In this document: in pieces, positions 23,919 through 48,168 of the stretch
How positions within the stretch are numbered: the stretch's first letter is position 1
Layout of the letters: every line of letters begins with the position of its first letter
Assembly (NCBI GenBank): GCA_016207465.1
Contig: JACQPP010000090.1
Coordinates: 1 to 51,828 of the forward strand
Length of the DNA stretch: 51,828 nucleotides
Reading direction: 5' to 3'
Origin: Methanobacteriota archaeon
GTDB lineage: Archaea; Halobacteriota; Syntropharchaeia; JACQPP01
The notes under the pieces: generated by a model
The model's input: only the letters and a program-made list of their open reading frames with translations
What the model was told of the DNA's origin: nothing
The model's database searches: none
Made by a program: the position numbers and the translations under genes

Positions 23919-24713
23919 CTACTTCTCGGCCTTCAGGCACTCCATCTCGCGCTCCAGCAGGGAGAGCTCCTTCGCCTCCAGGCTCCGGGGGTCCACGGAG
24001 AGGATGAGGCGGGCGTTGCTGTGGGCCACAATCTCCCGGAGCCCGTAGAGGAACTTGAGGGTCCCCGGGAACCCCTTGGTCTGGACGAGGTATTCGAGGG
24101 CGTTGATGAGCACCACCCCCTCGCTGCGCTCGCGGAGGAACTTGGCGATGAGGAAGGAGAGCTCCTCCAGGTCCTCCACCGCCTGGAACTCCCGGGAGGG
24201 GGGCTGCTGGCCAATCCACACGATGGGGGTCTTGTGGAGCCGGTGGGTGTCGCGGATTCGCTTCGGGGGCGAGCGGGTGAAGCAGAGCCCCGGGGCCCCA
24301 TGGGTCACCAGGTCGGCGAACATCTCCAGGGCGGCCTCGGGGCGCTCCTCCCGCACCAGGTAGCAGAGCCCCCGCTCCAGGGAGACACCGGGCTGGCCCT
24401 CCCGGGGGGCCTCCGCCTCCGAGAGCAGGAGGAACCGGTACTTCACCGCCCCGATGGGGGCCATGTCGAACCTCGCCCCCGCCTGCTCCAAGACCGCCTC
24501 TATGTCCTTCTGGAACCGCTTGAACTGGCGGGCCTTCAGCTCCGCCCGGTAGACCACCAGAAAATAGGTCTCCCTCCGGCCCTCCAGGGTGAACTCCCCC
24601 CTCCCGAAGGTGAGGGGGGTCGGCCCCTTCTCATGGACCTTCAGGACCCGCTCCACCGTCTGCACCGAGGCCTCATCGTAGGCGATGACCAGGAATCCGA
24701 GACCGGCAACCAT
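23919..24713 (-). CDS. Soluble DUF835-domain protein
   Basis: 264-aa ORF. The C-terminal ~150 aa (GLCFTRSPPKRIRDTHRLHKTPIVWIGQQ...GVVLINALEYLV...ARLILSVDPRSLEAKELSLLEREM) align by eye with the C-terminal domains of 28151..29350 and 29417..30655. Confidence 0.75.
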   Translation of the reverse strand: MVAGLGFLVIAYDEASVQTVERVLKVHEKGPTPLTFGRGEFTLEGRRETYFLVVYRAELKARQFKRFQKDIEAVLEQAGARFDMAPIGAVKYRFLLLSEAEAPREGQPGVSLERGLCYLVREERPEAALEMFADLVTHGAPGLCFTRSPPKRIRDTHRLHKTPIVWIGQQPPSREFQAVEDLEELSFLIAKFLRERSEGVVLINALEYLVQTKGFPGTLKFLYGLREIVAHSNARLILSVDPRSLEAKELSLLEREMECLKAEK

Positions 24714-28150: not shown

Positions 28151-28620
28151 CTACGCCACCCCGGGCGGCGCCATCAACTCGTTCTCCAGCATCGCCCGTT
28201 CTTTCTCGCTGACCACTCTCGGGTCGGTCCGCACCAGCAGCACCGCGTTCCCGGACCCCGCCACCTCCTTCAGTGTGGTCACGAGCCAGAAGTACATCTG
28301 GAACTCGTAGCGGTGGACCATGTAGGCCGCGCCGTCCAAGAGCACCACGGCGTCGGGGGCCTCGCGGATGAAGTCCTTCACCATGTTGGCCACATCGTCG
28401 AGCCGGTTCACGGTCCGGATGCCCTTCTCCGGGGGCTCGGCCCCCAGCCACACGATGGGGGTCACCGCGAGCCCCATCTGCTCGCGCACGCTGCCGGGGT
28501 GGTCGCGGGTGAGGCAGAGGCCCGGCCGGCCGTGCTTCGCCAGGTCCCCGAATATTTCGTGGGCCCGCCGGGAGGAGGCGTCGGGGAACAGATAGGCCCC
28601 CTTTTCGATACTGTACCTGG
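28151..28620 (-). repeat. Paralogous repeat, copy 1 (DUF835-coding 3-prime half of copy B)
   Basis: It aligns with 29417..29885 and includes a 77-nt perfectly identical run (28317-28393 = 29580-29656). Confidence 0.85.
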
Positions 28621-29350
28621 GAGGCTGGGGGGACACCGCCTCCTGGGTGGGGGTGATGATTATCTTGTACCGCAGAATCGCAAAACTGAAAAACGCCGCT
28701 GTGACAATCCCCGCCTCGTTCTCGTCCACCGGGAGGTAGATTCCAGCGAACATGCGACCGGCACCCGTGGCGATGGAGAACCCCGTCAGGGTGCATACGC
28801 CCGCCAGAAGCGCTCCCAGGGCCCTCCTCTCCGCCGAGGAACCCGTTCTCACATACGCCCGCCCCCAGAGGCCGATGGCCAGCAGTGCCGGGACCGCAGC
28901 CACCGCCATGTAGGCCGGAATCAGTGGACCGTACTTCATGTAGAAAAATCCCGCGCCCTCCAAAACCGCCACTTCCGTCGCGAATAGACCGATGTCCTGC
29001 AGGAACAGAGATGTGAGCACGAGAGCGGGGATGTAGGGGAGGACAAAGAACAGGCGCCGGTTCATGAAACGGACTCTCCGGGGAAACAGGAGGCAGAATA
29101 GCAGGAAGGTGGCCGACATGAAGGGGACCAGAACGCCGTTTCCGTAACGGTAGAGAACACGGCTTTCATCCGTGTGCCACCCCATCCGTCCAGGCAGATA
29201 CGCGAGTGCGAAGAGAACAAAGAAGACCAGCAAGAGAAGGAAGACGCGGCTGGCCGTATCCTCCCGGTTGCGCCGCCATACAATCGCGCCGAACAGGGCG
29301 GCGATGCCGATGGTAATCAATGGAAAAATGGCGTTGATGGCCATGTGCAT
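28151..29350 (-). CDS. Membrane protein: N-terminal ~7-TM sensor-like domain fused to a C-terminal DUF835 domain (copy B)
   Basis: ORF 28151..29362 (TTG), trimmed here to the ATG at 29350. The N-terminal ~240 aa are multi-TM. The C-terminus reads GLCLTRDHPGSVREQMGLAVTPIVWLG...AVVLLDGAAYMVHRYEFQMYFWLVTTLKEVAGSGNAVLLVRTDPRVVSEKERAMLENEL. Confidence 0.8.
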   Translation of the reverse strand: MHMAINAIFPLITIGIAALFGAIVWRRNREDTASRVFLLLLVFFVLFALAYLPGRMGWHTDESRVLYRYGNGVLVPFMSATFLLFCLLFPRRVRFMNRRLFFVLPYIPALVLTSLFLQDIGLFATEVAVLEGAGFFYMKYGPLIPAYMAVAAVPALLAIGLWGRAYVRTGSSAERRALGALLAGVCTLTGFSIATGAGRMFAGIYLPVDENEAGIVTAAFFSFAILRYKIIITPTQEAVSPQPPRYSIEKGAYLFPDASSRRAHEIFGDLAKHGRPGLCLTRDHPGSVREQMGLAVTPIVWLGAEPPEKGIRTVNRLDDVANMVKDFIREAPDAVVLLDGAAYMVHRYEFQMYFWLVTTLKEVAGSGNAVLLVRTDPRVVSEKERAMLENELMAPPGVA

Positions 29351-29384
29351 CCGCAAATGCAAATGAAAAGAAAACGAATGCCGC

Positions 29385-29416: not shown

Positions 29417-29885
29417 CTATGCCGCCGGCGCCGCTTGCAACTCGTTCTCCAGCATGGCCCGCTCCTTCTCGCTCACCACACGCGGGTCCATGCGAACGAG
29501 CAGGATGCCGTTGCCCGCCCCGGCCACCTCCTTCAAGGTCGTCACGAGCCAGAAATACATCTGGAACTCGTAGCGATGAACCATGTAGGCCGCGCCGTCC
29601 AAGAGCACCACGGCGTCGGGGGCCTCGCGGATGAAGTCCTTCACCATGTTGGCCACGTCGTCGAGGCGGTTCACGGTCCGGATGCCCTTCTCCGGGGGCT
29701 CCGAGCCCATCCACACAATCGGGGTGGTGGTGAGCCCCATCTGCTCGCGCACCCGGCGGGGGGGGTCGCGGGTGAGGCAGAGGCCGGGCCGACCATGTTT
29801 GGTGAGGTCTCCGAAGATTTCGTGGGCCCGCTGGGAGGAGGGGTCGGGGAGAAGGTAGGCGCGACCACCTCGGAGGGTATACTTG
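29417..29885 (-). repeat. Paralogous repeat, copy 2 (DUF835-coding 3-prime half of copy C)
   Basis: See copy 1. The 5-prime (TM-coding) halves of the two genes are not alignable by eye at the nucleotide level. Confidence 0.85.
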
Positions 29886-30655
29886 GGTGGTTGGGGAGAA
29901 ACGGCCTCCGGGGCGGGGCTGACGAAGGCCCCGTGGCGCTTCACCGCGTAGCCGGTGAGGACAACCAGGGGAAGAGGGAGGAGGTCCCCCAGTTCTCCGG
30001 GCCACCGGCCCGTAAGTTTAAACAGGATGTTGGGTGCCACACCTCCCACCAGCAGGGAGAGGACTAGTCCCAACACGAACAGGAGAATCTGGCGGCGCGC
30101 GGTATGGGAACCGCTCAAAAGATAGGAGGCCCCGAATCGGGCCAGCACAAAGGGGACTCCGACCCCCAGGGTGAGCGCCACCAGGGGGAAGAGAGGAAGC
30201 AGCTCGTACTCGAACTGGTAGCCGAATTCCAGGAGCGTCAACGACGTGAGCCGGTACACCATCCCCGAGGCGATGGCGACGGCGGAGGCGGCGCTGAGAA
30301 GGTACACCCCCGAAAGCACCGGTGTCTGGACCCGGAGAAGGCCATCCATCCACCTCCCCGCCCCAGGAGCCGGTGAGGGAGCCCTGGACAGAGCCGGGAA
30401 CACACAGGAAAAATGGGCGGTGATGGCGACCAGCAGGACCAGCAGAGAATGGGAGGCAAGCGCGATGAAGGTGTACTGCTCCGGGGTCATGAATTCATCA
30501 AAAAAATAAAAGAAGGAGACCCCGGCCAGGATGGCCGCGCCAATGGCAAAGAGCTGGTTCGCCCGGTTCCCCGGGTTCCGCCACAACACATAGACCGCCA
30601 GGAACGCGATGCAGAGGAAGGAAACGAGGGCGGGAATGGCGTAGAGAAGGGCCAT
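29417..30655 (-). CDS. Membrane protein: N-terminal ~7-TM sensor-like domain fused to a C-terminal DUF835 domain (copy C)
   Basis: 412-aa ORF. The N-terminus (LCIAFLAVYVLWRNPGNRANQLFAIGAAILA...) resembles the 7TM input region of archaeal histidine kinases. The C-terminal domain is nearly identical to copy B. Confidence 0.8.
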   Translation of the reverse strand: MALLYAIPALVSFLCIAFLAVYVLWRNPGNRANQLFAIGAAILAGVSFFYFFDEFMTPEQYTFIALASHSLLVLLVAITAHFSCVFPALSRAPSPAPGAGRWMDGLLRVQTPVLSGVYLLSAASAVAIASGMVYRLTSLTLLEFGYQFEYELLPLFPLVALTLGVGVPFVLARFGASYLLSGSHTARRQILLFVLGLVLSLLVGGVAPNILFKLTGRWPGELGDLLPLPLVVLTGYAVKRHGAFVSPAPEAVSPQPPKYTLRGGRAYLLPDPSSQRAHEIFGDLTKHGRPGLCLTRDPPRRVREQMGLTTTPIVWMGSEPPEKGIRTVNRLDDVANMVKDFIREAPDAVVLLDGAAYMVHRYEFQMYFWLVTTLKEVAGAGNGILLVRMDPRVVSEKERAMLENELQAAPAA

Positions 30656-31773: not shown

Positions 31774-31992
31774 ATGGGCGTTCCGGCCACCGTGCGGCGC
31801 TGGGGCTCCTCCCTGGCGGTGACCCTGCCAAAGGAGTTGGTGAGGTCCCTCTCCCTGAGGGAAGGGGAGAAAATCCACATCGAGGTGAAGAAGGAGAACC
31901 CTCTGCGCGAGGTCTTCGGGAAGGGGAAACTGGACAAGCCAATCGACAAGGTGATGCGGGAGATTGATTCCGAGTTGTGGGGCGGGCTGTGA
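31774..31992 (+). CDS. vapB: AbrB/SpoVT-type antitoxin (VapB-like)
   Basis: 72-aa ORF. VRRWGSSLAVTLPKELVRSLSLREGEKIHIEV is a swapped-hairpin motif. Confidence 0.8.
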   Translation: MGVPATVRRWGSSLAVTLPKELVRSLSLREGEKIHIEVKKENPLREVFGKGKLDKPIDKVMREIDSELWGGL

Positions 31993-32342
31993 CGACCTAC
32001 CTCTTTGACACCTACGCCTTCCTGAAACTCTACGAGGGCGCCCGCAGTTATGAGAGGTACTTGCGGGAGGACTTCGTGACCACCGCTCTCCAAATCATCG
32101 AGTTGCACTACAAGCTCCGGAAGATGGCAGACCCGGATGCCGATGCGGTCGTCTCCAAATTTTGCCGCCTGGAGGAAATCACTTGCGAGGACGTGGTGGA
32201 AGGGATGAAGGTGAAGGAGAAGATGCCGGAGCTCTCCCCCGCCGACGCCATCGGCTACGCGGTGGCCCGGAGACTGGGCATCCCATTCCTCACGGGGGAC
32301 GGGCCCATGAGAAAACTGCCGGGCGTGGAGTTCGTGCGGTAG
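31989..32342 (+). CDS. vapC: PIN-domain ribonuclease toxin (VapC-like)
   Basis: It starts VTTYLFDTYAFL at a GTG overlapping the vapB stop (GTGA), and has late acidic residues (PADAIGYAVARRLGIPFLTGD). Confidence 0.75.
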   Translation: MTTYLFDTYAFLKLYEGARSYERYLREDFVTTALQIIELHYKLRKMADPDADAVVSKFCRLEEITCEDVVEGMKVKEKMPELSPADAIGYAVARRLGIPFLTGDGPMRKLPGVEFVR

Positions 32343-33348: not shown

Positions 33349-34461
33349 ATGGCGGAGGCGTTCTCCTGGGGGCCGGGGGACCTGAGGGAGCTGGAGGGCA
33401 ACCTCCTCGACGAGCGCTCCAGCCGCTGGATGTACCTGCGGCTCGCGGAGATGGACGACCAGCGGGAGCGCGCCGAGCTTCTGCGGAGCCTCGCCGACTT
33501 CGAGGAGAAGCACACGGGCCTCTGGGAGAAACTGCTTCTCCATCTGGACCGCCGCGTCCCCGGGGAGCGGCGGATGGCGGACCACCGCATCCTCGTGCTC
33601 CTCGCCCGCCTCTTCGGGGTGGGGGCGGTGCTCCCCATCGTCCACAAGGGGGAGGTGGACGCCATCGCCAAGTACAAGCGGCAGGCGGCCCGCTGGCGGG
33701 ACCCGGCGGCCCAGGAGGTCTTCCCGGGGATTCTGCGGGACGAGATTGCCCACGAGGTGGACACCTTCAACGCCATGCGAGGGGCCGGGGCCACCCGAGG
33801 GGGACTCCGGAGTGCCATCCTCGGGGCCAACGACGGCCTGGGCTCGATACTGGCATTGGCGGCGGGGGTCGCCGGGGCCACCCGCTCCAGCCCCCTGGTC
33901 CTCATGGCGGGGGTGGCGGGGCTCATCGCCGGGGCGGTCTCCATGGCGGCCTCCAACTACGTGTCGGTGAAGGCCGAGCAGGAGGGATACGCGGCCCATG
34001 TCCGCATCCAGCGGGAGGCGGCGGAGGCGGCCCCGGAGGTCAAGGGGGCCCAGCTCCAGGCGGCCTACCGGGCCAAGGGGCTCACCGGGGCCGAGGCGGA
34101 GCAGGTGGTCTCACGCCTCATGGAGAAGCCCGAGGAGTTCCTCCGGGCCCTGCTGGCGGAGGAGCACGGACTCGCCGGGGACCATGTCGAGAGCCCTCCG
34201 CGCCTCGCCGCCTACACGGGGCTCGCCTTCATCCTCGCCGGCCTCATCCCCATCCTCCCCTTCCTGGTGCTCCCCGCCACCCCCGGGGTCATCGCCTCCG
34301 TCGTCCTCACCGGAGTGGCCCTCTTCTTCGCCGGGGTCCTCCGCGCCCTCTCCACCCTCCACCCCTTCCTGCGGAGCGGGGCCGAGATGGTCCTCATCGG
34401 CATGGGCTCCGCGACGGCCACCTACATGGTGGGGCTGGCGATGGGGGGCGCGGTGGGGTGA
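33349..34461 (+). CDS. VIT1/CCC1-family iron/manganese transporter with an N-terminal ferritin-like domain
   Basis: In-frame Met of ORF 33187..34461. The N-terminal domain has EEKH...EIAHE pairs. The C-terminus reads AILGANDGLGSILALAAGVAGA, followed by TM helices. Confidence 0.8.
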   Translation: MAEAFSWGPGDLRELEGNLLDERSSRWMYLRLAEMDDQRERAELLRSLADFEEKHTGLWEKLLLHLDRRVPGERRMADHRILVLLARLFGVGAVLPIVHKGEVDAIAKYKRQAARWRDPAAQEVFPGILRDEIAHEVDTFNAMRGAGATRGGLRSAILGANDGLGSILALAAGVAGATRSSPLVLMAGVAGLIAGAVSMAASNYVSVKAEQEGYAAHVRIQREAAEAAPEVKGAQLQAAYRAKGLTGAEAEQVVSRLMEKPEEFLRALLAEEHGLAGDHVESPPRLAAYTGLAFILAGLIPILPFLVLPATPGVIASVVLTGVALFFAGVLRALSTLHPFLRSGAEMVLIGMGSATATYMVGLAMGGAVG

Positions 34462-34477
34462 GGCCGGATGGGCCTCA
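34457..34477 (+). terminator. 8-bp hairpin GTGAGGCC-GGATG-GGCCTCAC spanning the VIT1 stop codon
   Basis: Read directly from the sequence. No clear T-tract follows, so a terminator role is tentative. Confidence 0.3.
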
Positions 34478-34535
34478 CATCTCCCCCCGGAACTCCCGGG
34501 TCCAGCACCCCCGGCGGCGGTCCCGGACTGGAGGC
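34475..34535 (-). repeat. Direct repeat L: decayed copy of an hsdS 3-prime end (frameshifted, 20-nt deletion)
   Basis: It aligns with 36428..36507. Identical blocks are CTCCCCCCGGAAC (13 nt) and TCCAGCACCCCCGGC (15 nt), then 18/20 after a 20-nt gap. Minus-strand translation gives ..LQSGTAA..PGVLD..FRGEM-stop in shifted frames. Confidence 0.8.
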
Positions 34536-34693
34536 ACAAAGTCTATTAAACACCAAGTCCTGTCCTATTCGATGCCTGGGTCCCCAAGCGTCAACCGGGC
34601 GATTACTTTCACCCCCCTCTCGACGAGAGCATATGCATTCATTTCTCGGCCTCTCCAAATAGGCGAAAATCGAAGCCTACCGAGGTATTCTCG

Positions 34694-35482
34694 ATGAGCG
34701 ACAACAGCAAAATCGAGTGGACTGAGGCCACCTGGAACCCGGTCACCGGTTGCACTAAAATCAGCCCGGGCTGCAAATACTGCTACGCCGAGCGCATGGC
34801 CCGCCGCCTCCAGGCCATGGGCCAGCACCGATACCGCAACGGCTTCCGGGTCACCCTCCAAGAAGACCTCGTTGACCTCCCCCGCAAGTGGAAGGAGGGG
34901 CGCCGCATCTTCGTCAACAGCATGAGCGACCTCTTTCACGCCGAGGTCCCATTCGACTTCATCCAAAGATGTTTCGACACCATGCGAGAGGCCGACCAGC
35001 ACACCTACCAGGTACTCACCAAGCGCCCCGAGAGGATGCTTGAGTTCGCCCTAGAGGCCCTGGAGGGACCCTGGCCTCCCCAGGTCTGGGCCGGGACCAG
35101 CGTGGAGAACGCGGATTACAAGTGGCGCATTGATATGCTGCGGGGGGTTCCAGCCTCTACCCGATTCCTCTCTATCGAGCCCCTCATCGGCCCCATGGGC
35201 AACCTCGACCTTGAGGGAATCCACTGGGTCATCGTCGGAGGAGAATCCGGGCCCCAGGCGCGGCCCATGGAGGCCGAGTGGGCCCGCGAGGTCCGGGACC
35301 AATGCCACGAGGCGGGGGTCGCGTTCTTCTTCAAACAGTGGGGGGGAACGAGAAAAAAACTCACAGGCCGCATTCTAGACGGAAGGACATGGGATGAATA
35401 CCCCTTATCTCTGCCGAAAAATAGGCTAACAAGTAGTGAAACGTCATTCTCCAACTCAATCCGCTTAGCAACACAAGTTTAA
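34694..35482 (+). CDS. DUF5131 (phage Gp37/Gp68 family) three-Cys-motif protein
   Basis: 262-aa ORF with N-terminus [31 protein letters not shown] (C20-x6-C27-x2-C30), then [27 protein letters not shown] and FFFKQWGG. Confidence 0.85.
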
Positions 35483-35499
35483 AGTGGGTTTATGTGCCT

Positions 35500-36426
35500 A
35501 TGGAAGTCTCCTATCACACACGAGTGAAACATAAGCTACTCGGTGACTATCTGAGTATCTGGGAAACGGCAATAAAGGGAAAGATACCGTTGCTTCAATT
35601 TGTTGACCTCTTTGCCGGTGATGGCATATGCAAACTTGAGAGTAGCCTTTCAATTACGTGGGATGGCTCAGCCATTTTGGGAGCAAGGATAGTAGGGGGT
35701 GTACCTGGCTGGAAGTGTATCCTGAATAGTTGGGACCCAAATGACCGGACTATATGCGACAGGCTAAAACACACTCTTGGAGAGACGAAGCCAAACATCC
35801 AAATTTTGAGCGAGGATGCAAATTTGTTGGTTGGCAAGATACTATCCTCGGCCTTCATCAACCCCAATTACCCGTCAATTTTTTTCTTAGACCCTACAGC
35901 ACACTCCCAACTCCCGTGGTCCACAATCGAAAAAATCGGAAACCATCGAGGGAAAATTAATAGAAACGATACCAGGTTAAGCCGACGTCCAGAGCTCATA
36001 GTGACGCTTATGACTGTCGGGATGCAAAGGAACCCGCAAGACCTTCCAGGCATATCGCGCGCGCTGGGCGTGACCGAAGAATGGTTGGAAACCTGGATTG
36101 AGTTTTGGAAGGAGTTACCAGAGAATCAAGGTGAACCCATCAACAAATCATTTCTCGATTTGTTTACTCTGAAACTCGAACGCCTCTATGGGCACAAACC
36201 ACTAACCATGAGTGTTCATAATCGAATGAAAAGCATCGTGTATTGGATTGTCTTCGCGTCAAGCCACAAGAGGGGAGTCGAGATTTATGGGCGCCTTATT
36301 CCCTGCGTGGAAAAGTACCATGAGGTAGAGTGGTGGAAGGAAGTGGGGGAATTGAAGATTTTAGAGATGAAGGAGAAGATGCGGCAAAAGGGACAACAAT
36401 TTCTTGATGAGAGGTTTTCCCGCTAA
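35500..36426 (+). CDS. tcmP: Three-Cys-motif partner protein TcmP-like (Rossmann/SAM-MTase-like motifs)
   Basis: ORF 35494..36426, with ATG at 35500. It has SYHTRVKHKLLGDYL, FVDLFAGDG and IFFLDPTAH. It is about 45% GC by hand count. The family call is from memory of the TIGR04474 description. Confidence 0.7.
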   Translation: MEVSYHTRVKHKLLGDYLSIWETAIKGKIPLLQFVDLFAGDGICKLESSLSITWDGSAILGARIVGGVPGWKCILNSWDPNDRTICDRLKHTLGETKPNIQILSEDANLLVGKILSSAFINPNYPSIFFLDPTAHSQLPWSTIEKIGNHRGKINRNDTRLSRRPELIVTLMTVGMQRNPQDLPGISRALGVTEEWLETWIEFWKELPENQGEPINKSFLDLFTLKLERLYGHKPLTMSVHNRMKSIVYWIVFASSHKRGVEIYGRLIPCVEKYHEVEWWKEVGELKILEMKEKMRQKGQQFLDERFSR

Positions 36427-36427
36427 T

Positions 36428-36507
36428 TCACAACTCCCCCCGGAACGCCCTATCCAGCACCCCCGGCAGCATCGCGTCGAGCCCGGCGGCGGTCTCGGAC
36501 TGGAGAC
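36428..36507 (-). repeat. Direct repeat R: intact-frame copy of the hsdS 3-prime end
   Basis: It encodes ..LQSETAAGLDAMLPGVLDRAFRGEL-stop. It is the partner of 34475..34535. Confidence 0.8.
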
Positions 36508-36589
36508 GGCGGAGGGAGTCCACCTTGGATTGGAGGGTGTAGAGTTTTTTGTCAACGTATCTGCGGCAGGTGTCGGCTTCGGTGTTCAT
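36428..36589 (-). pseudogene. 53-codon remnant ORF: HsdR-like N-terminus fused in frame to an HsdS C-terminal conserved region (type I R-M deletion scar)
   Basis: MNTEADTCRRYVDKKLY resembles the (S/T)E(A/S)DTcR..i.P.L start of type I/III restriction R subunits. TLQSKVDSLRRLQSETAAGLDAMLPGVLDRAFRGEL resembles the HsdS C-terminal ...LLPsiLdkAFkGEL ending. Confidence 0.5.
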
Positions 36590-36846
36590 CTCTTCCTCCC
36601 CCGTCCTTCCCACCACACCCATATCCCCAGCCCCTCCATGAGCCTCCGGAACTCCCCGGGGTGGGCGGCCTGCCACCGGGTCCCGTGGGCCTCCATGGTC
36701 TTGACGATGTCGGGGATGAAGTTGTGCTTGAGGGCCCGCTCCACGGTCCTCTGGAGTCCCTTCTCTGTGCCCTCGCGGAGCCACTTCTCGAAGAGGCGCT
36801 GGAGGGCCTCCGGGGTGAGGGCGGGGTCGCGGGGGCGGAGCCGCAT
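36586..36846 (-). CDS. Hypothetical 86-aa protein, translationally coupled (ATGA) to the remnant ORF
   Basis: MRLRPRDPALTPEALQRLFEKWLREGTEKGLQRTVERALKHNFIPDIVKTMEAHG... GC3 is near 100% in the first 22 codons. I recognise no family. Confidence 0.45.
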   Translation of the reverse strand: MRLRPRDPALTPEALQRLFEKWLREGTEKGLQRTVERALKHNFIPDIVKTMEAHGTRWQAAHPGEFRRLMEGLGIWVWWEGRGRKR

Positions 36847-36863: not shown

Positions 36864-38618
36864 TCACGGTTTTTTTCCCCCGGGTTCCATCCGCTTCTGC
36901 ATGGAATACATCTTGAGGACCTCCTGGACGGTGGTGGCCTCCTCGGCCCCCTTGTCTCCCCGGATGTCTCCGGTGAGGCGGGGGAAGCGGAGGGCGTATC
37001 CGGGCTCGGTGGGGGTGCGGCCGCAGGTGTGGCTGGGGGAGCGGGTGATTTCGTCGGCGGCCACCTCGATGACATACCGGGGGGTGACCCATGCATCGGG
37101 CTCCACGAGGGAGTCCACGTTCCTGGGGCGGGCCCGGAGGGTGATGGCGTCGAGTTTCTTCTTGAACTCGGTCATGTCGGCCTCGGTGAGGCCGGAGCCC
37201 ACCTTGGCCACGGTCTTGAATGTCTCCGTTTTGGGGTCCCAGACGGCGCCGAGGACGGTGCCCATGCCGAACTGGGCCCTCTGGCCGCGCCCCTTGAAGT
37301 AGCCGACGATGGCGAGGTCGAGGGTGTCGGCCAATTCCCCCCGGTAGGAGCGCTTGAGTTTTATCCAGGCGAACTTGCGGGCCCCGGCCACGTAGGGGGC
37401 CCGGAGGTCCTTGGCGATGATGCCCTCCAGCCCCGCCTCGATGCAGTGATGGAAGTAGTCCTCGAGTTCCCTGGGGGTGGAGACGTGGCGGGCCTCGGCC
37501 ATCTGCAGGGTCTCCCCCTGGCGGAGGGCATTCTCCAGCCGGGCCCGGCGCTCCCCGTAGGGGACCCGGGTGAGGTCCTCCCCCTGGTGGTAGAGGAGGT
37601 CGAAGGCGAAGAGCCGGAGGGGGAGGTCGCGGGCCGCCTGGGCCACCCCGTGCTTGCGCTTCCTCTGGATGGTCTCCTGGAAGGGGAGGTGGGCCCCGGT
37701 GGCCTCGTCGTAGGAGAGGGCCTCCCCCTCGAGGATGGCGTCCCCCGCAATCTGCCGCCGGGCCCCCTCGACAATCTCGGGGAACATGGGGGTGGTCTTC
37801 TCCAGGCGGCGGGAGAACAGTTCCACCCGCTCCCCCCGCTTGTGGACCTGGATGCGGAATCCATCGTATTTGGCCTCGGCGAGGCATGGCCCCATCTTCC
37901 CGATGATTTCCTCGGGGCCGGGGAGCCGCTCGGCGAGGGCGGGGCGGATGGGGGAGCCCACCCGGGGGGTGAAGCGCCCGATTTTCCCCGGGGACTCGAG
38001 GAGGGTCCGGGCGACGAGCCCGAGGTCGGAGCAGAGGTTGTAGGCCCGCTCCAGGCTCTCCTTGAGGGACTTGTCCCCCACCTGGCAGGCCGAGAGGGCC
38101 TCCAGGATGGTGGCATCCCCCGCCCCCAACCTCAGTTTGCCGATGGGGACCCGCGCGATATACTTGGCCTCCACCGGGGTGGCCGCGGTGAGGAGCTCGG
38201 TGAGGAGGCCGATTTTCACATCCTGGCTCCCCGTCCCGCCGGTGGCGGCCATGCGGGTGAAGGTCTCGAAGACCGAGGCCACCGTGAGGGGCTCGGGCTC
38301 CGTGAGGCGCGAGCGGGGGCCCCCCGCGAGTCCCTGGGCGGTGAGCCCCAGGTCCCCCGAGGTCTTGTAGTGCTTCTCCACCTGGGCCCGGCTCCGCCCG
38401 GTGGCCCGCGCGATGGCCTTCGCCACGAACTTCTCCCCCAGCCCAATCTCCGCCCCCTCGAATGGGGGGGAGATGCCCCCCTGCAGGAGATAGACCACCC
38501 GGTCAATCTCCCCCGCCGGGGTCTCCCGGAAGAGGCCGGCGAGGATGTCCATCATCTCCAGGCGCCGGGGGGTCGCATCGAGGCGCTCGAAGACCTCGCA
38601 GAGGCGGGAGAACTCCAT
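36864..38618 (-). CDS. lig: ATP-dependent DNA ligase
   Basis: 584-aa ORF with EAKYDGFRIQVHK (adenylation Lys motif I), LEGEALSYD, EGIIAKD, WIKLKRSY and a C-terminal OB domain. Confidence 0.93.
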   Translation of the reverse strand: MEFSRLCEVFERLDATPRRLEMMDILAGLFRETPAGEIDRVVYLLQGGISPPFEGAEIGLGEKFVAKAIARATGRSRAQVEKHYKTSGDLGLTAQGLAGGPRSRLTEPEPLTVASVFETFTRMAATGGTGSQDVKIGLLTELLTAATPVEAKYIARVPIGKLRLGAGDATILEALSACQVGDKSLKESLERAYNLCSDLGLVARTLLESPGKIGRFTPRVGSPIRPALAERLPGPEEIIGKMGPCLAEAKYDGFRIQVHKRGERVELFSRRLEKTTPMFPEIVEGARRQIAGDAILEGEALSYDEATGAHLPFQETIQRKRKHGVAQAARDLPLRLFAFDLLYHQGEDLTRVPYGERRARLENALRQGETLQMAEARHVSTPRELEDYFHHCIEAGLEGIIAKDLRAPYVAGARKFAWIKLKRSYRGELADTLDLAIVGYFKGRGQRAQFGMGTVLGAVWDPKTETFKTVAKVGSGLTEADMTEFKKKLDAITLRARPRNVDSLVEPDAWVTPRYVIEVAADEITRSPSHTCGRTPTEPGYALRFPRLTGDIRGDKGAEEATTVQEVLKMYSMQKRMEPGGKKP

Positions 38619-39821: not shown

Positions 39822-39918
39822 AGGACGAAGCCGCAGATTTCGCAGATTATGTAGGCTGGATACGGGTGGGGGACTTCTTGTAGAGACCACGTGTAAATTA
39901 CAGGCGGACAGGTCACAC

Positions 39919-40134
39919 ATGACTTCACGAACAGGGCCTCAGTCACAGAGGGGCAAAAGACAGTCCGAGGAGGGGTGGTGGATAATTGTCTCGGCTGATG
40001 GGCACAAGTATACCGGTTATGTGGAGAGCGGTGGACAACTCGACGGTTTCTGTGTAGAGTTTGGTGCAGAGGAATGCTTTGGACCATTCTCTACCGAGAG
40101 GAAAGCCAGAAAAATTGCTGGGCTTCCACCCTAA
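39919..40134 (+). CDS. Hypothetical 71-aa protein in a lower-GC islet
   Basis: This ORF appears only in the track and I recognise no motif. Local GC is about 53%. Confidence 0.35.
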   Translation: MTSRTGPQSQRGKRQSEEGWWIIVSADGHKYTGYVESGGQLDGFCVEFGAEECFGPFSTERKARKIAGLPP

Positions 40135-40226
40135 TTCATTAACGAAGAGGAAACGCTAAGGACAGATGGGGCCAGGGACCTTCTTGTGCTTATCTCCAAG
40201 ACTAACGAAGACCGGAAAAGCTAAGC

Positions 40227-40703
40227 TTGATTCATGGATTATGGAGTGTGCCCTATACGGAACACTCCCACAGGTTCGCCGTTACCATCTTGGCCCACCA
40301 CTATCCGGAGGCGAAGAAGGAAATCGAAGCCGTAGTGGTGGACCCCCATACCCCTCTCGGCCGAGGACACCAGCCGACCCCCTCCAAAGTGCTCCAAGCC
40401 CGATTCCGCAGCCTGGGATGGAGGACAGAGAAGACAGTCGGAGAATCAAGCCTCCGATTCGATGCCCTTAAAGGTCGGGTTGCCATTGAAATCGAGTTAA
40501 CAGACCCCGCGGATGTCCTGAATACACTTCTCAAGTTCCAGATTGCGAATTCCGGGAATCAAATTGACGTGGGTCTGCTCGTGGTCTACGACGATTCCAT
40601 CAGGGGGACGAACATCCCGAAAATCGGAAAAGCAAAAAGTGACCTTCGCCTGTTCTCGAACTTGGTGTTCTGCCCTGTCTGGGTTATTGGCTTGAAAGAG
40701 TAA
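40227..40703 (+). CDS. BglII/BstYI-fold (PD-(D/E)xK) restriction-endonuclease-like protein, orphan
   Basis: 158-aa ORF. ...RFRSLGWRTEK...LRFDALKGRVAIEIELTDPADVLNTLLKFQIANSGNQIDVGLLVVYD matches the remembered BglII core pattern (D..K...vEvq.....v..dl.Kf......idvGv.I). No methyltransferase gene is nearby. Confidence 0.55.
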   Translation: MIHGLWSVPYTEHSHRFAVTILAHHYPEAKKEIEAVVVDPHTPLGRGHQPTPSKVLQARFRSLGWRTEKTVGESSLRFDALKGRVAIEIELTDPADVLNTLLKFQIANSGNQIDVGLLVVYDDSIRGTNIPKIGKAKSDLRLFSNLVFCPVWVIGLKE

Positions 40704-40719
40704 TCTGTGGCTCGTTTAT

Positions 40720-47563: not shown

Positions 47564-47773
47564 GTGATGGCGACGCTCTCTGTTCAGGTCCGCCGCGTGG
47601 GGAACTCCCTGGGGGTCCTCTTTCCCAAGCAGGTGGTGGAGGATATGAAGATTCAGGAGCGGGATGTGGTGAAGGTGGAAATCCAGAAGGAGAAGGTGAG
47701 CGGATTCGGGATGGCCCGGGGGGCGCCGCCCTACGACCGCAAGAAAATCCGAGACGACATCCGCGAATGGTAG
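47564..47773 (+). CDS. vapB: AbrB/SpoVT-type antitoxin (VapB-like)
   Basis: VQVRRVGNSLGVLFPKQVVEDMKIQERDVVKVEI. The ATG at 47567 is the likely start. Confidence 0.8.
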   Translation: MMATLSVQVRRVGNSLGVLFPKQVVEDMKIQERDVVKVEIQKEKVSGFGMARGAPPYDRKKIRDDIREW

Positions 47774-48168
47774 CCTCGTATATTGTGGATACCAGCGCGT
47801 GGATTGAGTATTTTGAGGGCACCGACGCGGGACGCCAGGTGCGGCAGGTGGTCGAAGCCCCGAATCAGATGGTTCTGGCCCCGGAGTGCGTGGTGGCCGA
47901 ACTGAAGATATGGGCCCTCTTGGCCGGGAAGGAGTTCGAGCCCTTCTATGGGGTGGTGCGCAACATCGCCATCGTCGAGCCCATCCATCTGGAGGAGTGG
48001 CTCGAAGCCGCGCAAATCCGGCAGGAGATGAGGGCGCAGAAGGACCGGAAGGACTTCGGCATCATTGATGCGCTGCTGGTGGCGAAACAGCGAAGGCATC
48101 ACGCGAGAATCGTCACAGGGGACCCTCACTTTAAGGGGTTGAAGGATGTCGTGTTCATCAAGGAGTGA
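47767..48168 (+). CDS. vapC: PIN-domain ribonuclease toxin (VapC)
   Basis: It has YIVDTSAWIEYF (first acidic residue), ...ECVVAEL..., DALLVA and IVTGDPHFK. It overlaps vapB by 7 nt. Confidence 0.85.
   Translation: MVASYIVDTSAWIEYFEGTDAGRQVRQVVEAPNQMVLAPECVVAELKIWALLAGKEFEPFYGVVRNIAIVEPIHLEEWLEAAQIRQEMRAQKDRKDFGIIDALLVAKQRRHHARIVTGDPHFKGLKDVVFIKE

What the first reader, a model, noticed from the sequence alone, without database searches (positions are those of the whole stretch)
34475..36507. The cassette is bracketed by direct repeats that are two copies of an hsdS 3-prime end (att-like architecture)
34475-34535 and 36428-36507 align in direct orientation. The alignment runs TCACA, 1 mismatch, a 13-nt identity, 1 mismatch, CCC, a 3-vs-2-nt indel, a 15-nt identity, then a 20-nt segment (AGCATCGCGTCGAGCCCGGC) present only on the right, then 18/20.

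On the minus strand the right copy encodes the in-frame end ...LQSETAAGLDAMLPGVLDRAFRGEL-stop. The left copy encodes the same end, degraded: LQSGTAA / frameshift / PGVLD / frameshift / FRGEM-stop. One intact and one displaced, decaying copy of a target gene's 3-prime end, flanking about 1.9 kb of compositionally foreign DNA, is the classic signature of site-specific integration. Alternatively it could come from recombination between hsdS conserved regions. No integrase is present in the window.
Basis: seen in the sequence. Interest (0 to 1): 0.75.

Follow-up and report, generated by a model that had tools for sequence, protein, structure and literature searches.

The report
Defence-gene cassette flanked by duplicated hsdS gene end
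A foreign two-gene cassette (DUF5131 plus TcmP, a candidate anti-virus or DNA-modification pair) sits at the tail of a collapsed type I restriction-modification operon in an archaeal genome and is flanked by two copies of that operon's last ~78 bases; this is a real insertion footprint, but nothing shows that an integrase made it.

Summary
Window 34475-34533 and 36428-36505 are direct repeats with a local alignment score of 62, against at most 33 for any other place in the window. They bracket 1,892 bp of lower-GC DNA.

Both repeats are the last 25 codons plus the stop codon of a type I hsdS gene. They share rare residues, so they descend from a single allele.

Two parts of the interpretation need changing.
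- **The "intact" copy is not an hsdS gene.** It is the tail of a 53-codon ORF that fuses the first 17 codons of an EcoAI-family hsdR to the last 36 codons of hsdS. That ORF is the in-frame scar of a deleted hsdR-hsdM-hsdS operon.
- **Nothing supports integrase-mediated att recombination.** The window has no recombinase, transposase or tRNA. The longest exact block shared by the repeats is 15 nt. Five other DUF5131-TcmP loci have no bracketing repeats, and only 1 of about 83 loci lies beside a type I system.

The cassette matches PADLOC candidates PDC-M30/M41, a class that was originally found embedded in BREX, DISARM and type I R-M loci.

My best reading is a recombinational insertion at the 3' end of hsdS that duplicated host sequence. 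The orphan left copy then decayed, and the operon was deleted later. No close relative exists in any collection searched, so no empty site could be examined. Interest is modest.

The parts
33349..34461 (+). Host gene for a rubrerythrin-like plus VIT1 protein. It converges on the left hsdS remnant, and its stop codon lies 13 nt before the repeat.
   Evidence: Pfam VIT1 7.6e-57; GC3 0.95.
34475..34533 (-). Left repeat. This is a decayed orphan copy of the last 25 codons plus stop of hsdS. It has a 20-nt deletion, a 1-nt insertion and several substitutions, and it is not part of any ORF.
   Evidence: Alignments; three-frame reading; rare residues shared with the right copy.
34536..34693 (+). Left end of the inserted DNA, upstream of the DUF5131 gene (GC 0.51). 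The motif GATTACTTTCAC lies about 90 nt upstream of the start codon and also occurs in L171, with a looser TTCAC match in L172.
   Evidence: Composition; sequences and alignment.
34694..35482 (+). DUF5131 (phage Gp37/Gp68) protein of 262 aa. The three-Cys motif C20-x6-C27-x2-C30 is intact.
   Evidence: Pfam PF07505 1.6e-103; PADLOC PDC-M41B 2.6e-116 and PDC-M30B 6.8e-111; phrog_2045 4.9e-101.
35500..36426 (+). TcmP, the three-Cys-motif partner protein (308 aa from the ATG at 35500; an alternative GTG lies at 35494). Its predicted fold is a class I SAM-methyltransferase, RlmJ/DUF519-like. The stop codon lies 1 nt from the S53 stop codon.
   Evidence: TIGR04474 at 104.6 bits against a cut-off of 53; weak PDC-M41A/M30A hits; AlphaFold model with pLDDT 81 and pTM 0.82; Foldseek hits 2oo3, 7p9i_A and 3axs at E about 1e-5 to 1e-4.
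36428..36505 (-). Right repeat. This is the in-frame copy of the last 25 codons plus stop of hsdS (L29-L53 of S53). Positions 36462-36481 are the 20 nt missing from the left copy.
   Evidence: GC3 about 0.96, counted by hand from the sequence.
36428..36589 (-). S53, a 53-codon ORF. Codons 1-17 (36539-36589) come from the start of an EcoAI-family hsdR. Codons 18-53 (36428-36538) come from the C-terminal conserved region of hsdS. It is the in-frame scar of a deleted hsdR-hsdM-hsdS operon.
   Evidence: BLASTP against P0027: residues 1-16 match 1-16 (11/16), and 9-53 match 385-429 (58%, E 6e-16). P0027 and P0013 match NF046051, the EcoAI R subunit. Pfam HSDR_N plus Methylase_S on P0027 and P0025. 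Alignment with six other scars. PDB HsdS hits.
36586..36843 (-). Small host-like ORF (sm94, 85 aa from the ATG) with no known family. Its TGA stop overlaps the S53 ATG as ATGA.
   Evidence: GC3 0.92. No hits in Pfam, NCBIfam, PADLOC, PHROGs or plasmids beyond one sub-threshold Pfam match, Rv0078B-related antitoxin at E 0.018 and 15.5 bits against a cut-off of 27.1.
36864..38618 (-). Host ATP-dependent DNA ligase, used as the anchor for the synteny searches.
   Evidence: Pfam DNA_ligase_A_N, _M and _C; best relatives 55% identical and 70% identical.

Best explanation
The locus once carried a type IB (EcoAI-family) restriction-modification operon in the order hsdR-hsdM-hsdS. It lay downstream of the ligase and sm94, and hsdS converged on VIT1.

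A foreign 1.9-kb module was inserted at the very 3' end of hsdS. The module encodes a DUF5131 protein, which belongs to the radical-SAM superfamily, and its TcmP partner, which has a methyltransferase fold. This pair is the PADLOC candidate PDC-M30/M41.

The insertion was recombinational, not catalysed by a dedicated integrase. Two routes are possible: a single crossover through a short hsdS homology, or a break-repair event. Either way it left the host's own last ~78 nt of hsdS on both sides of the insert, and hsdS stayed intact.

The downstream (left) copy was now orphaned and decayed. It lost 20 nt between CCCGGC repeats, gained 1 nt and accumulated substitutions. Later an in-frame deletion from hsdR codon 17 to hsdS codon -36 removed the operon and left the 53-codon scar.

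**Shown:** the repeats and their significance; their hsdS identity and common allele; the scar; the foreign composition and family membership of the cassette; and the absence of a recombinase.

**Inferred:** the insertion mechanism, the order of events, and any function of the cassette.
For: - **The repeat is real.** Score 62 against a window-wide maximum of 33.
- **Both copies come from one allele.** They share rare residues along the whole segment. This favours duplicated host sequence.
- **Codon composition is host-like.** GC3 of the duplicated codons is about 0.96 by hand count, against 0.53 for tcmP.
- **All polarisable differences lie on the left copy.** These are E32G, L53M, the RA cluster with its extra nucleotide, and the 20-nt deletion. 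The right copy keeps the family consensus at those positions. This suggests the right copy stayed under selection after the duplication, so hsdS outlived the insertion.
- **S53 is an hsdR::hsdS scar**.
- **The hsdR-hsdM-hsdS order is plausible.** It occurs in L207 and in EcoKI (PMC12707154).
- **No recombinase, transposase or tRNA is present**, and no terminal inverted repeats lie at the cassette ends.
- **The cassette is a known module of defence islands.** It hits PDC-M30/M41. The PDC sets were derived from genes embedded in BREX, DISARM and type I R-M systems (bioRxiv 10.1101/2024.01.29.577857). Plasmid copies lie beside McrBC, methylases and ATPases.
- **Both cassette genes are intact**.
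Against: - No empty-site allele, circular junction or pre-deletion relative could be found. The event itself is therefore unobserved.
- A 78-nt duplication is much longer than ordinary target-site duplications.
- A single crossover would require the incoming DNA to carry this host's own hsdS tail already.
- The foreign DNA ends within 1 nt of the hsdS stop codon. An element-borne replacement 3' end (the att model) explains that more naturally than chance does. The coincidence is only moderate, though, because the hsdS-VIT1 spacer is just 13 nt.
- The polarity argument rests on 4-5 events (P about 0.03-0.06).
Confidence: 0.5

Rival explanations
1. Site-specific integration. A small integrative element carrying an attP that mimics the hsdS 3' end was inserted by an integrase acting in trans. 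The element's copy replaced the gene's 3' end (right copy) and displaced the original (left copy).
For: - The repeats are direct and sit exactly at the composition boundaries.
- The repeat ends exactly at the stop codon, and foreign DNA starts 1 nt later.
- One copy is in frame and the other is decayed.
Against: - No integrase lies in the cassette or anywhere in the 51.8-kb window.
- The longest exact block is 15 nt, and mismatches are spread across the whole repeat.
- Both copies carry this allele's rare residues along the full length. An imported attP would be expected to look generic or donor-like.
- Both copies have host-like GC3.
- Five other DUF5131-TcmP loci show no bracketing repeats of 20 nt or more.
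- Only 1 of about 83 loci lies beside a type I system.
- The closest relative abuts a fumarase-like gene and has no significant flank repeat (P 0.05-0.12, with only 40 nt of flank available).
Confidence: 0.15
2. Tandem island model. A circular DNA carrying the same R-M operon plus the cassette, arranged as in L207, recombined homologously with a resident operon. This gave R-M / cassette / R-M. Two separate deletions then reduced each operon copy to a stub: S53 on the right and the hsdS tail on the left.
For: - L207 shows an EcoAI-family hsdR-hsdM-hsdS operon directly beside a DUF5131 gene followed by a 382-aa ORF whose TcmP identity I did not test.
- A circular permutation of that unit gives the order seen in the window.
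- hsdR::hsdS deletion scars are common in metagenomes.
- The model explains why the two copies are the same allele.
Against: - It needs three events.
- Tandem copies would be expected to collapse by recombination and take the cassette with them.
- The hsdS tail (GC3 about 0.96) and tcmP (GC3 0.53) differ strongly in composition, which argues against joint arrival.
- The region upstream of DUF5131 does not align with L207, and no hsdR remnant lies to the left.
Confidence: 0.2
3. Two independent hsdS genes. The locus held two separately acquired hsdS genes, and the repeats are just their conserved C-terminal regions. The cassette simply lies between them.
For: The HsdS C-terminal helix is highly conserved. 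Database tails share on average 18 of 25 residues with the right copy. I also know multi-hsdS loci to exist.
Against: - The left and right copies share five rare states, with a joint frequency of about 1e-6 if independent.
- The left copy is closer to the right than to any of 136 database tails.
- No TRD or other hsdS sequence lies upstream of the left copy.
Confidence: 0.07
4. Assembly artefact. Foreign DNA was spliced into the contig at a shared repeat.
For: The window appears to be a metagenome-assembled contig, because its proteins sit on a single 51,828-bp contig. The composition also changes sharply at both junctions.
Against: - The repeats share at most 15 exact bases, too few to bridge an assembly graph.
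- The left copy carries its own decay pattern.
- Both junctions are unique sequence.
Confidence: 0.02

Closest known systems
Defence genes embedded in or abutting type I R-M loci (PrrC in EcoPrrI; TgvAB in V. cholerae VPI-2; the PADLOC PDC sets from 'guilt-by-embedding')
   Same: This is a small accessory cassette physically tied to a type I R-M operon. The pair matches PDC-M30/M41. The PDC sets were derived from BREX, DISARM and type I R-M embedded genes (PMC11411939; PMC12707154).
   Different: - The cassette lies just past the hsdS stop codon, not between hsd genes.
- It is in the opposite orientation to the operon.
- The host operon has since been deleted to a 53-codon scar.
- A duplicated gene end marks the insertion point. 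The papers I read do not describe this for embedded cassettes.
Integrase-mediated genomic islands that target the 3' end of a gene (tRNA, tmRNA or protein-coding) and regenerate it (from my own knowledge)
   Same: Direct repeats made of the target's 3' end flank foreign DNA. The reading frame is preserved on one side, and a displaced copy lies on the other.
   Different: - There is no integrase in the element or the window.
- The element has only two genes.
- The repeats are imperfect everywhere.
- Both copies carry host-specific residues and host codon usage.
- No recurrence was seen at other cassette loci.
Recombination through HsdS conserved regions (TRD shuffling, plasmid cointegration through hsdS in Lactococcus, phase-variable hsdS loci) (from my own knowledge, with the CR architecture from PMC12707154)
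   Same: The repeated segment is exactly the C-terminal conserved helix of HsdS, the part of the gene known to act as a recombination substrate. A single crossover there would give flanking direct copies.
   Different: - No second hsdS, TRD or recombinase is present.
- The product is not a new specificity. It is a non-hsd cassette bracketed by the conserved-region tail.
- The orientation is direct, not inverted.

Membership tests
Integrase-mediated integrative element (att-flanked island) | A tyrosine or serine recombinase encoded in the element or beside it | tested here: not met
   Pfam scans of the cassette genes and about 45 ORFs across the window found no integrase, resolvase or transposase. 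NCBIfam, PADLOC and PHROGs scans of the cassette also found none.
Integrase-mediated integrative element (att-flanked island) | attL and attR sharing an identical core at the element boundaries | tested here: inconclusive
   Direct repeats lie at both boundaries, but identity is about 88% with two indels and the longest exact block is 15 nt. Decay after the event could explain this.
Integrase-mediated integrative element (att-flanked island) | An empty site or an excised circular form in relatives or in reads | not testable with these tools
   No relative closer than 70% ligase identity was found, and none shows synteny. No read data are available.
Integrase-mediated integrative element (att-flanked island) | The same element recurs at the same target in other genomes | tested here: not met
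   The closest DUF5131 (79% identity) abuts a fumarase-like gene. Five other loci have no bracketing repeats. Only 1 of about 83 loci lies next to a type I system.
Type I R-M specificity subunit (HsdS) | Homology to the HsdS C-terminal conserved region | tested here: met
   PDB HsdS 5ybb_D and 3okg_A at E 2e-4; annotated S subunits at E 1e-5; 962 phmmer hits at protein C-termini; weak PADLOC Specificity_I hits.
Type I R-M specificity subunit (HsdS) | Two target recognition domains (Methylase_S) and partner hsdM and hsdR genes | tested here: not met
   S53 has 53 codons and no Pfam domain. Its first 17 codons are hsdR-like. No hsdM or hsdR lies in the window. It is a remnant, not a gene.
DUF5131-TcmP pair (PADLOC PDC-M30/M41) | A DUF5131 protein with the three-Cys motif next to a TcmP (TIGR04474) protein | tested here: met
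   PF07505 at 1.6e-103, with C20/C27/C30 present. TIGR04474 at 104.6 bits against a cut-off of 53. PDC-M41B 2.6e-116; PDC-M41A 2.9e-8.
DUF5131-TcmP pair (PADLOC PDC-M30/M41) | Anti-phage or nucleic-acid-modifying activity | not testable with these tools
   Fold evidence only. TcmP models as an RlmJ-like class I methyltransferase. DUF5131 is listed within the radical SAM superfamily (PMC9477430). The PDCs are untested candidates.
Transposon or insertion sequence | A transposase, terminal inverted repeats and a short target-site duplication | tested here: not met
   No transposase. No inverted repeat pairs the two cassette ends. The duplication is 78 nt, far longer than typical.
Integron gene cassette | An attC-type imperfect palindrome at the cassette end, plus IntI and attI | tested here: not met
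   No IntI-type integrase in the window. No palindromic element at the cassette ends.

The most novel reading that the evidence does not exclude
Small cassettes in these high-GC lineages may be gained, and perhaps lost, without any dedicated integrase. The route would be recombination through a duplicated end segment of the neighbouring gene, tens to hundreds of bases long. This would be a gene-end-repeat cassette system loosely analogous to integron cassettes.

The hint is a second, unrelated locus, L172. There, five direct copies of the promoter plus 5' part of a DUF5131 gene (64-93% identical by repeat family; the truncated ones are decaying) each precede different small toxin-antitoxin-like genes. 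That parallels the duplicated hsdS 3' end seen here.
Probability: 0.08. Interest if true: 0.7.

Novelty: new member of a known kind. Interest (0 to 1): 0.3.

Why it matters
The locus records a stepwise turnover of immune genes in an archaeal genome that has no close sequenced relative. A type I R-M operon acquired a candidate defence or modification pair at its tail and was itself deleted later, while the newcomer survived intact.

The duplicated gene end gives base-pair boundaries for the DUF5131-TcmP module, whose function is unknown. It also shows that such modules can insert without disrupting the neighbouring gene.

If the repeats proved to be a recombination substrate, that would point to an integrase-free route for moving cassettes. 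As it stands, this is a well-documented single case of a known pattern.

Tried and rejected
1. **Empty-site search through host synteny.** I scanned genome contigs and metagenome contigs with the ligase. The best hits were 55% identical and showed no synteny. The 90%-identity clusters of the ligase, VIT1 and endonuclease IV are singletons. The best ligase in 5.8 billion proteins is 70% identical, and its contig L258 has different neighbours. This led nowhere.
2. **Exact look-ups of TcmP and the ligase** gave no other contig.
3. **Close TcmP relatives** are at most 44% identical, sit on contigs under 4 kb, and are paired with SPL-like radical SAM genes. They say nothing about flanks.
4. **Target duplication in L171.** The left flank against the fumarase 3' end gave P 0.05-0.12, which is not significant. 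Only 40 nt of flank are available.
5. **Bracketing repeats at five other DUF5131-TcmP loci:** none of 20 nt or more.
6. **Scan of 3 Mb of fetched loci for orphan HsdS tails or pairs of tails.** Only L173, L174 and L207 were found, and none was paired.
7. **Alignment of DUF5131 upstream regions across loci.** Only a short shared motif emerged, and there was no similarity to L207.
8. **tRNA, Rfam and promoter/terminator scans** found nothing relevant.
9. **sm94** has no confident match in Pfam, NCBIfam, PADLOC, PHROGs or plasmids.
10. **The idea that the two copies are the central and distal conserved regions of one hsdS** was rejected, because both copies end in a stop codon at the same position.
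Full report
**1. Observation**

A local alignment scores 62. Two thousand random 61-mers from the window gave a mean of 14.8 (sd 3.2, maximum 33), and tiling both strands found no third copy.

The 20 nt present only on the right (36462-36481) sit between two CCCGGC hexamers. Homologous proteins carry the corresponding residues. The left copy therefore lost these bases by a microhomology deletion.

On the minus strand the right copy reads LQSETAAGLDAMLPGVLDRAFRGEL-stop. The left copy reads LQSGTAA / PGVLD / FRGEM-stop across three frames.

The 1,892 nt between the repeats differ from the host in composition:
- host genes: GC about 0.70, GC3 0.92-0.95
- DUF5131 gene: GC 0.60, GC3 0.76
- tcmP: GC 0.46, GC3 0.53

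The longest exact block shared by the repeats is 15 nt, so an assembly join through them is not credible.

**2. What the repeats are**

The right copy ends a 53-codon ORF, S53 (36428-36589, minus strand). Several searches place its tail in HsdS:
- It matches annotated S subunits on plasmids at E 1e-5.
- It matches the last 39 residues of the solved HsdS structures 5ybb_D and 3okg_A at E 2e-4.
- An exhaustive phmmer search gave 962 hits, nearly all at the extreme C-terminus of 350-460 aa proteins. Those checked carry Methylase_S.

The hsdS 3' end label is therefore correct.

The best full-length matches to S53 are of a different kind. They are short ORFs that fuse an HsdR N-terminus (M.TEADTCRKYV.PKL...) to an HsdS C-terminus, and each has a different junction. 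Longer examples show the two halves clearly:
- P0027 carries HSDR_N and ResIII followed by Methylase_S. It matches the EcoAI/FtnUII R-subunit model at 2e-91.
- S53 residues 1-16 match P0027 residues 1-16 (11 of 16).
- S53 residues 9-53 match P0027 residues 385-429 (58%, E 6e-16).

S53 is therefore the in-frame scar of a deletion that removed almost all of an hsdR-hsdM-hsdS operon. That gene order is seen intact in L207 and in EcoKI (PMC12707154).

The so-called intact copy is not an hsdS gene. The window contains no hsdM, no hsdR and no target recognition domain.

**3. Relationship between the two copies**

I took 136 database HsdS tails. The residues that the left and right copies share are rare among them:
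- S at position 3: 8%
- G at position 8: 4%
- G at position 15: 1%
- V at position 16: 24%
- R at position 22: 21%

The left copy matches the right at 16 of 18 readable positions. The best database tail reaches 13. The two copies therefore descend from one allele. Two independently acquired hsdS genes are unlikely.

Every difference that can be polarised against the family consensus lies on the left copy: E32G, L53M, the RA cluster with its extra base, and the 20-nt deletion. I infer that the right copy stayed under purifying selection after the duplication. If so, hsdS survived the insertion and the operon was deleted later. This rests on 4-5 events, P about 0.03-0.06.

**4. The cassette**

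- **34694-35482** encodes a DUF5131 (Gp37/Gp68) protein with its three cysteines intact. Scores are Pfam 1.6e-103, PADLOC PDC-M41B 2.6e-116 and PDC-M30B 6.8e-111, and phrog_2045 4.9e-101. DUF5131 is listed within the radical SAM superfamily (PMC9477430).
- **35500-36426** encodes TcmP, at 104.6 bits against a TIGR04474 cut-off of 53. Its AlphaFold model (pLDDT 81, pTM 0.82) resembles class I SAM methyltransferases. The best matches are DUF519 (2oo3) and RlmJ (7p9i_A) at E about 2e-5, with TM-scores of 0.39-0.55.

The PADLOC PDC sets were defined from genes embedded in BREX, DISARM and type I R-M systems and remain untested (bioRxiv 10.1101/2024.01.29.577857). Plasmid copies of the pair sit among McrBC, methylases and ATPases. 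The cassette is thus an ordinary, sporadically distributed defence-island module and probably a nucleic-acid modification pair.

**5. Is it an att-flanked mobile element?**

Evidence against:
- Pfam scans of about 45 ORFs found no recombinase or transposase.
- There is no tRNA.
- No terminal inverted repeats lie at the cassette ends.
- The closest DUF5131 (79% identity, L171) lies in another high-GC host with a very different TcmP. It abuts a fumarase-like gene, and its flank shows no significant repeat (P 0.05-0.12, with only 40 nt of flank available).
- Five further loci have no bracketing repeats of 20 nt or more.
- Of about 83 viral and plasmid loci, only L207 has a type I system next to the pair.
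- Both repeat copies have host-like GC3 and share host-specific residues along their whole length. That fits duplicated host sequence better than an imported attP.

Evidence for the att reading:
- The foreign DNA ends 1 nt from the hsdS stop codon, and the reading frame is preserved on that side. The hsdS-VIT1 spacer is only 13 nt, so the coincidence is moderate.

**6. Most likely history**

My confidence in this history is 0.5.
1. A type IB operon lay downstream of the ligase and sm94.
2. The cassette entered at the hsdS tail by recombination, either a single crossover through short hsdS homology or break repair. This duplicated about 78 nt.
3. The orphan left copy decayed.
4. The operon was later deleted to S53.

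Rivals:
- Tandem R-M copies around the cassette, followed by two deletions (0.2). L207 makes this plausible. The composition contrast argues against it.
- Integration by an integrase acting in trans (0.15).
- Two independent hsdS genes (0.07).
- Assembly artefact (0.02).

**7. What could not be done**

No empty site or pre-deletion allele is available. The ligase, VIT1 and endonuclease IV form singleton 90%-identity clusters. The best ligase relatives are 55% identical in the two contig collections and 70% identical in the protein collection, and none shows synteny.

**8. Verdict**

The hsdS identity and the foreign cassette are confirmed. The att / site-specific integration reading is only partly supported, and the "intact hsdS" reading is wrong.

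The case is a new member of a known kind: a defence-candidate cassette attached to a type I R-M locus, here with an unusually clear duplicated gene-end footprint. Interest is modest (0.3). The most novel reading still open is integrase-free cassette movement through gene-end repeats, hinted at by the L172 array. I put its probability at about 0.08.

Noticed in passing
window 36428-36589 (-); proteins P0012, P0013, P0015, P0016, P0025, P0027, P0038, P0040, P0060; loci L173, L174: In-frame hsdR(5')::hsdS(3') fusion ORFs of 50-429 aa recur in metagenomes. All come from the EcoAI-type family and each has a different junction. Whole type I operons therefore seem to be lost often by internal deletion that keeps the first codons of hsdR and the last codons of hsdS. 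Some junctions lie where both genes encode R-(R/G)-I/Y-V, a possible microhomology.
   Followed up: partly
L172 1-7847 (ENA ERZ27254809 k141_536533): The locus holds five direct copies (64-93% identical, depending on the repeat family) of about 55 nt of upstream sequence plus the first 160-300 nt of a DUF5131 gene. Only one copy is full length and is followed by a TcmP. The truncated copies have lost their start codons or the third cysteine. Each truncated copy precedes different small genes: ParE, NYN, or DUF5678 with an Asp-protease-like gene. The last three units form a tandem array with a period of about 1,157 nt.
   Followed up: partly
window 39900-40710: A second low-GC islet (0.50-0.55) carries a BglII-like restriction endonuclease ORF (40227-40703, Pfam 2.1e-11). 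No methyltransferase was detected beside it. An unassigned 71-aa ORF lies upstream (39919-40134). This may be another R-M remnant.
   Followed up: partly
L171 1-3100 (Logan SRR22388343): The closest DUF5131 (79% identity, GC 0.52) is paired with a TcmP that shows no detectable BLAST similarity to the window's. The pair lies in another roughly 70%-GC host, 15 nt from the stop codon of a convergent fumarase-like gene. The motif GATTACTTTCAC lies about 90 nt upstream of the start codon in both L171 and the window. In all three loci examined, the partner gene has lower GC than the DUF5131 gene.
   Followed up: partly
L161, L162: The nearest relatives of the window's TcmP (36-44% identity) sit beside spore-photoproduct-lyase-like radical SAM genes instead of DUF5131. 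The TcmP partner therefore seems to be exchangeable between radical-SAM-type enzymes.
   Followed up: no
L207 667-7938 (IMGVR_UViG_3300050581_000226): An intact EcoAI-family hsdR-hsdM-hsdS operon is transcribed divergently from a DUF5131 gene and a 382-aa partner ORF whose TcmP identity I did not test. It is the only one of about 83 fetched loci that links the pair to a type I system.
   Followed up: partly
window 36586-36843 (-): A small ORF with host-like codon usage (GC3 0.92) has no homologue in any library searched, apart from one sub-threshold Pfam match (Rv0078B-related antitoxin, E 0.018). Its stop codon overlaps the S53 (former hsdR) start codon as ATGA, which suggests it was once translationally coupled to hsdR.
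   Followed up: partly
window 31774-32342 and 47767-48168: There is a MazE/AbrB-like antitoxin plus a PIN toxin pair, and a second lone PIN gene. Three DUF835 genes, two of them carrying HisKA_7TM N-termini, lie at 23919-24713, 28151-29362 and 29417-30655.
   Followed up: no
whole window: The host's placement is uncertain. The ligase is closest to Micrarchaeota-labelled MAGs at only about 55% identity, and the best match anywhere is 70%. Yet the window encodes AFOR, ETF, acyl-CoA dehydrogenase, Mtd and Lhr at about 70% GC, which seems unusual to me for DPANN genomes.
   Followed up: no
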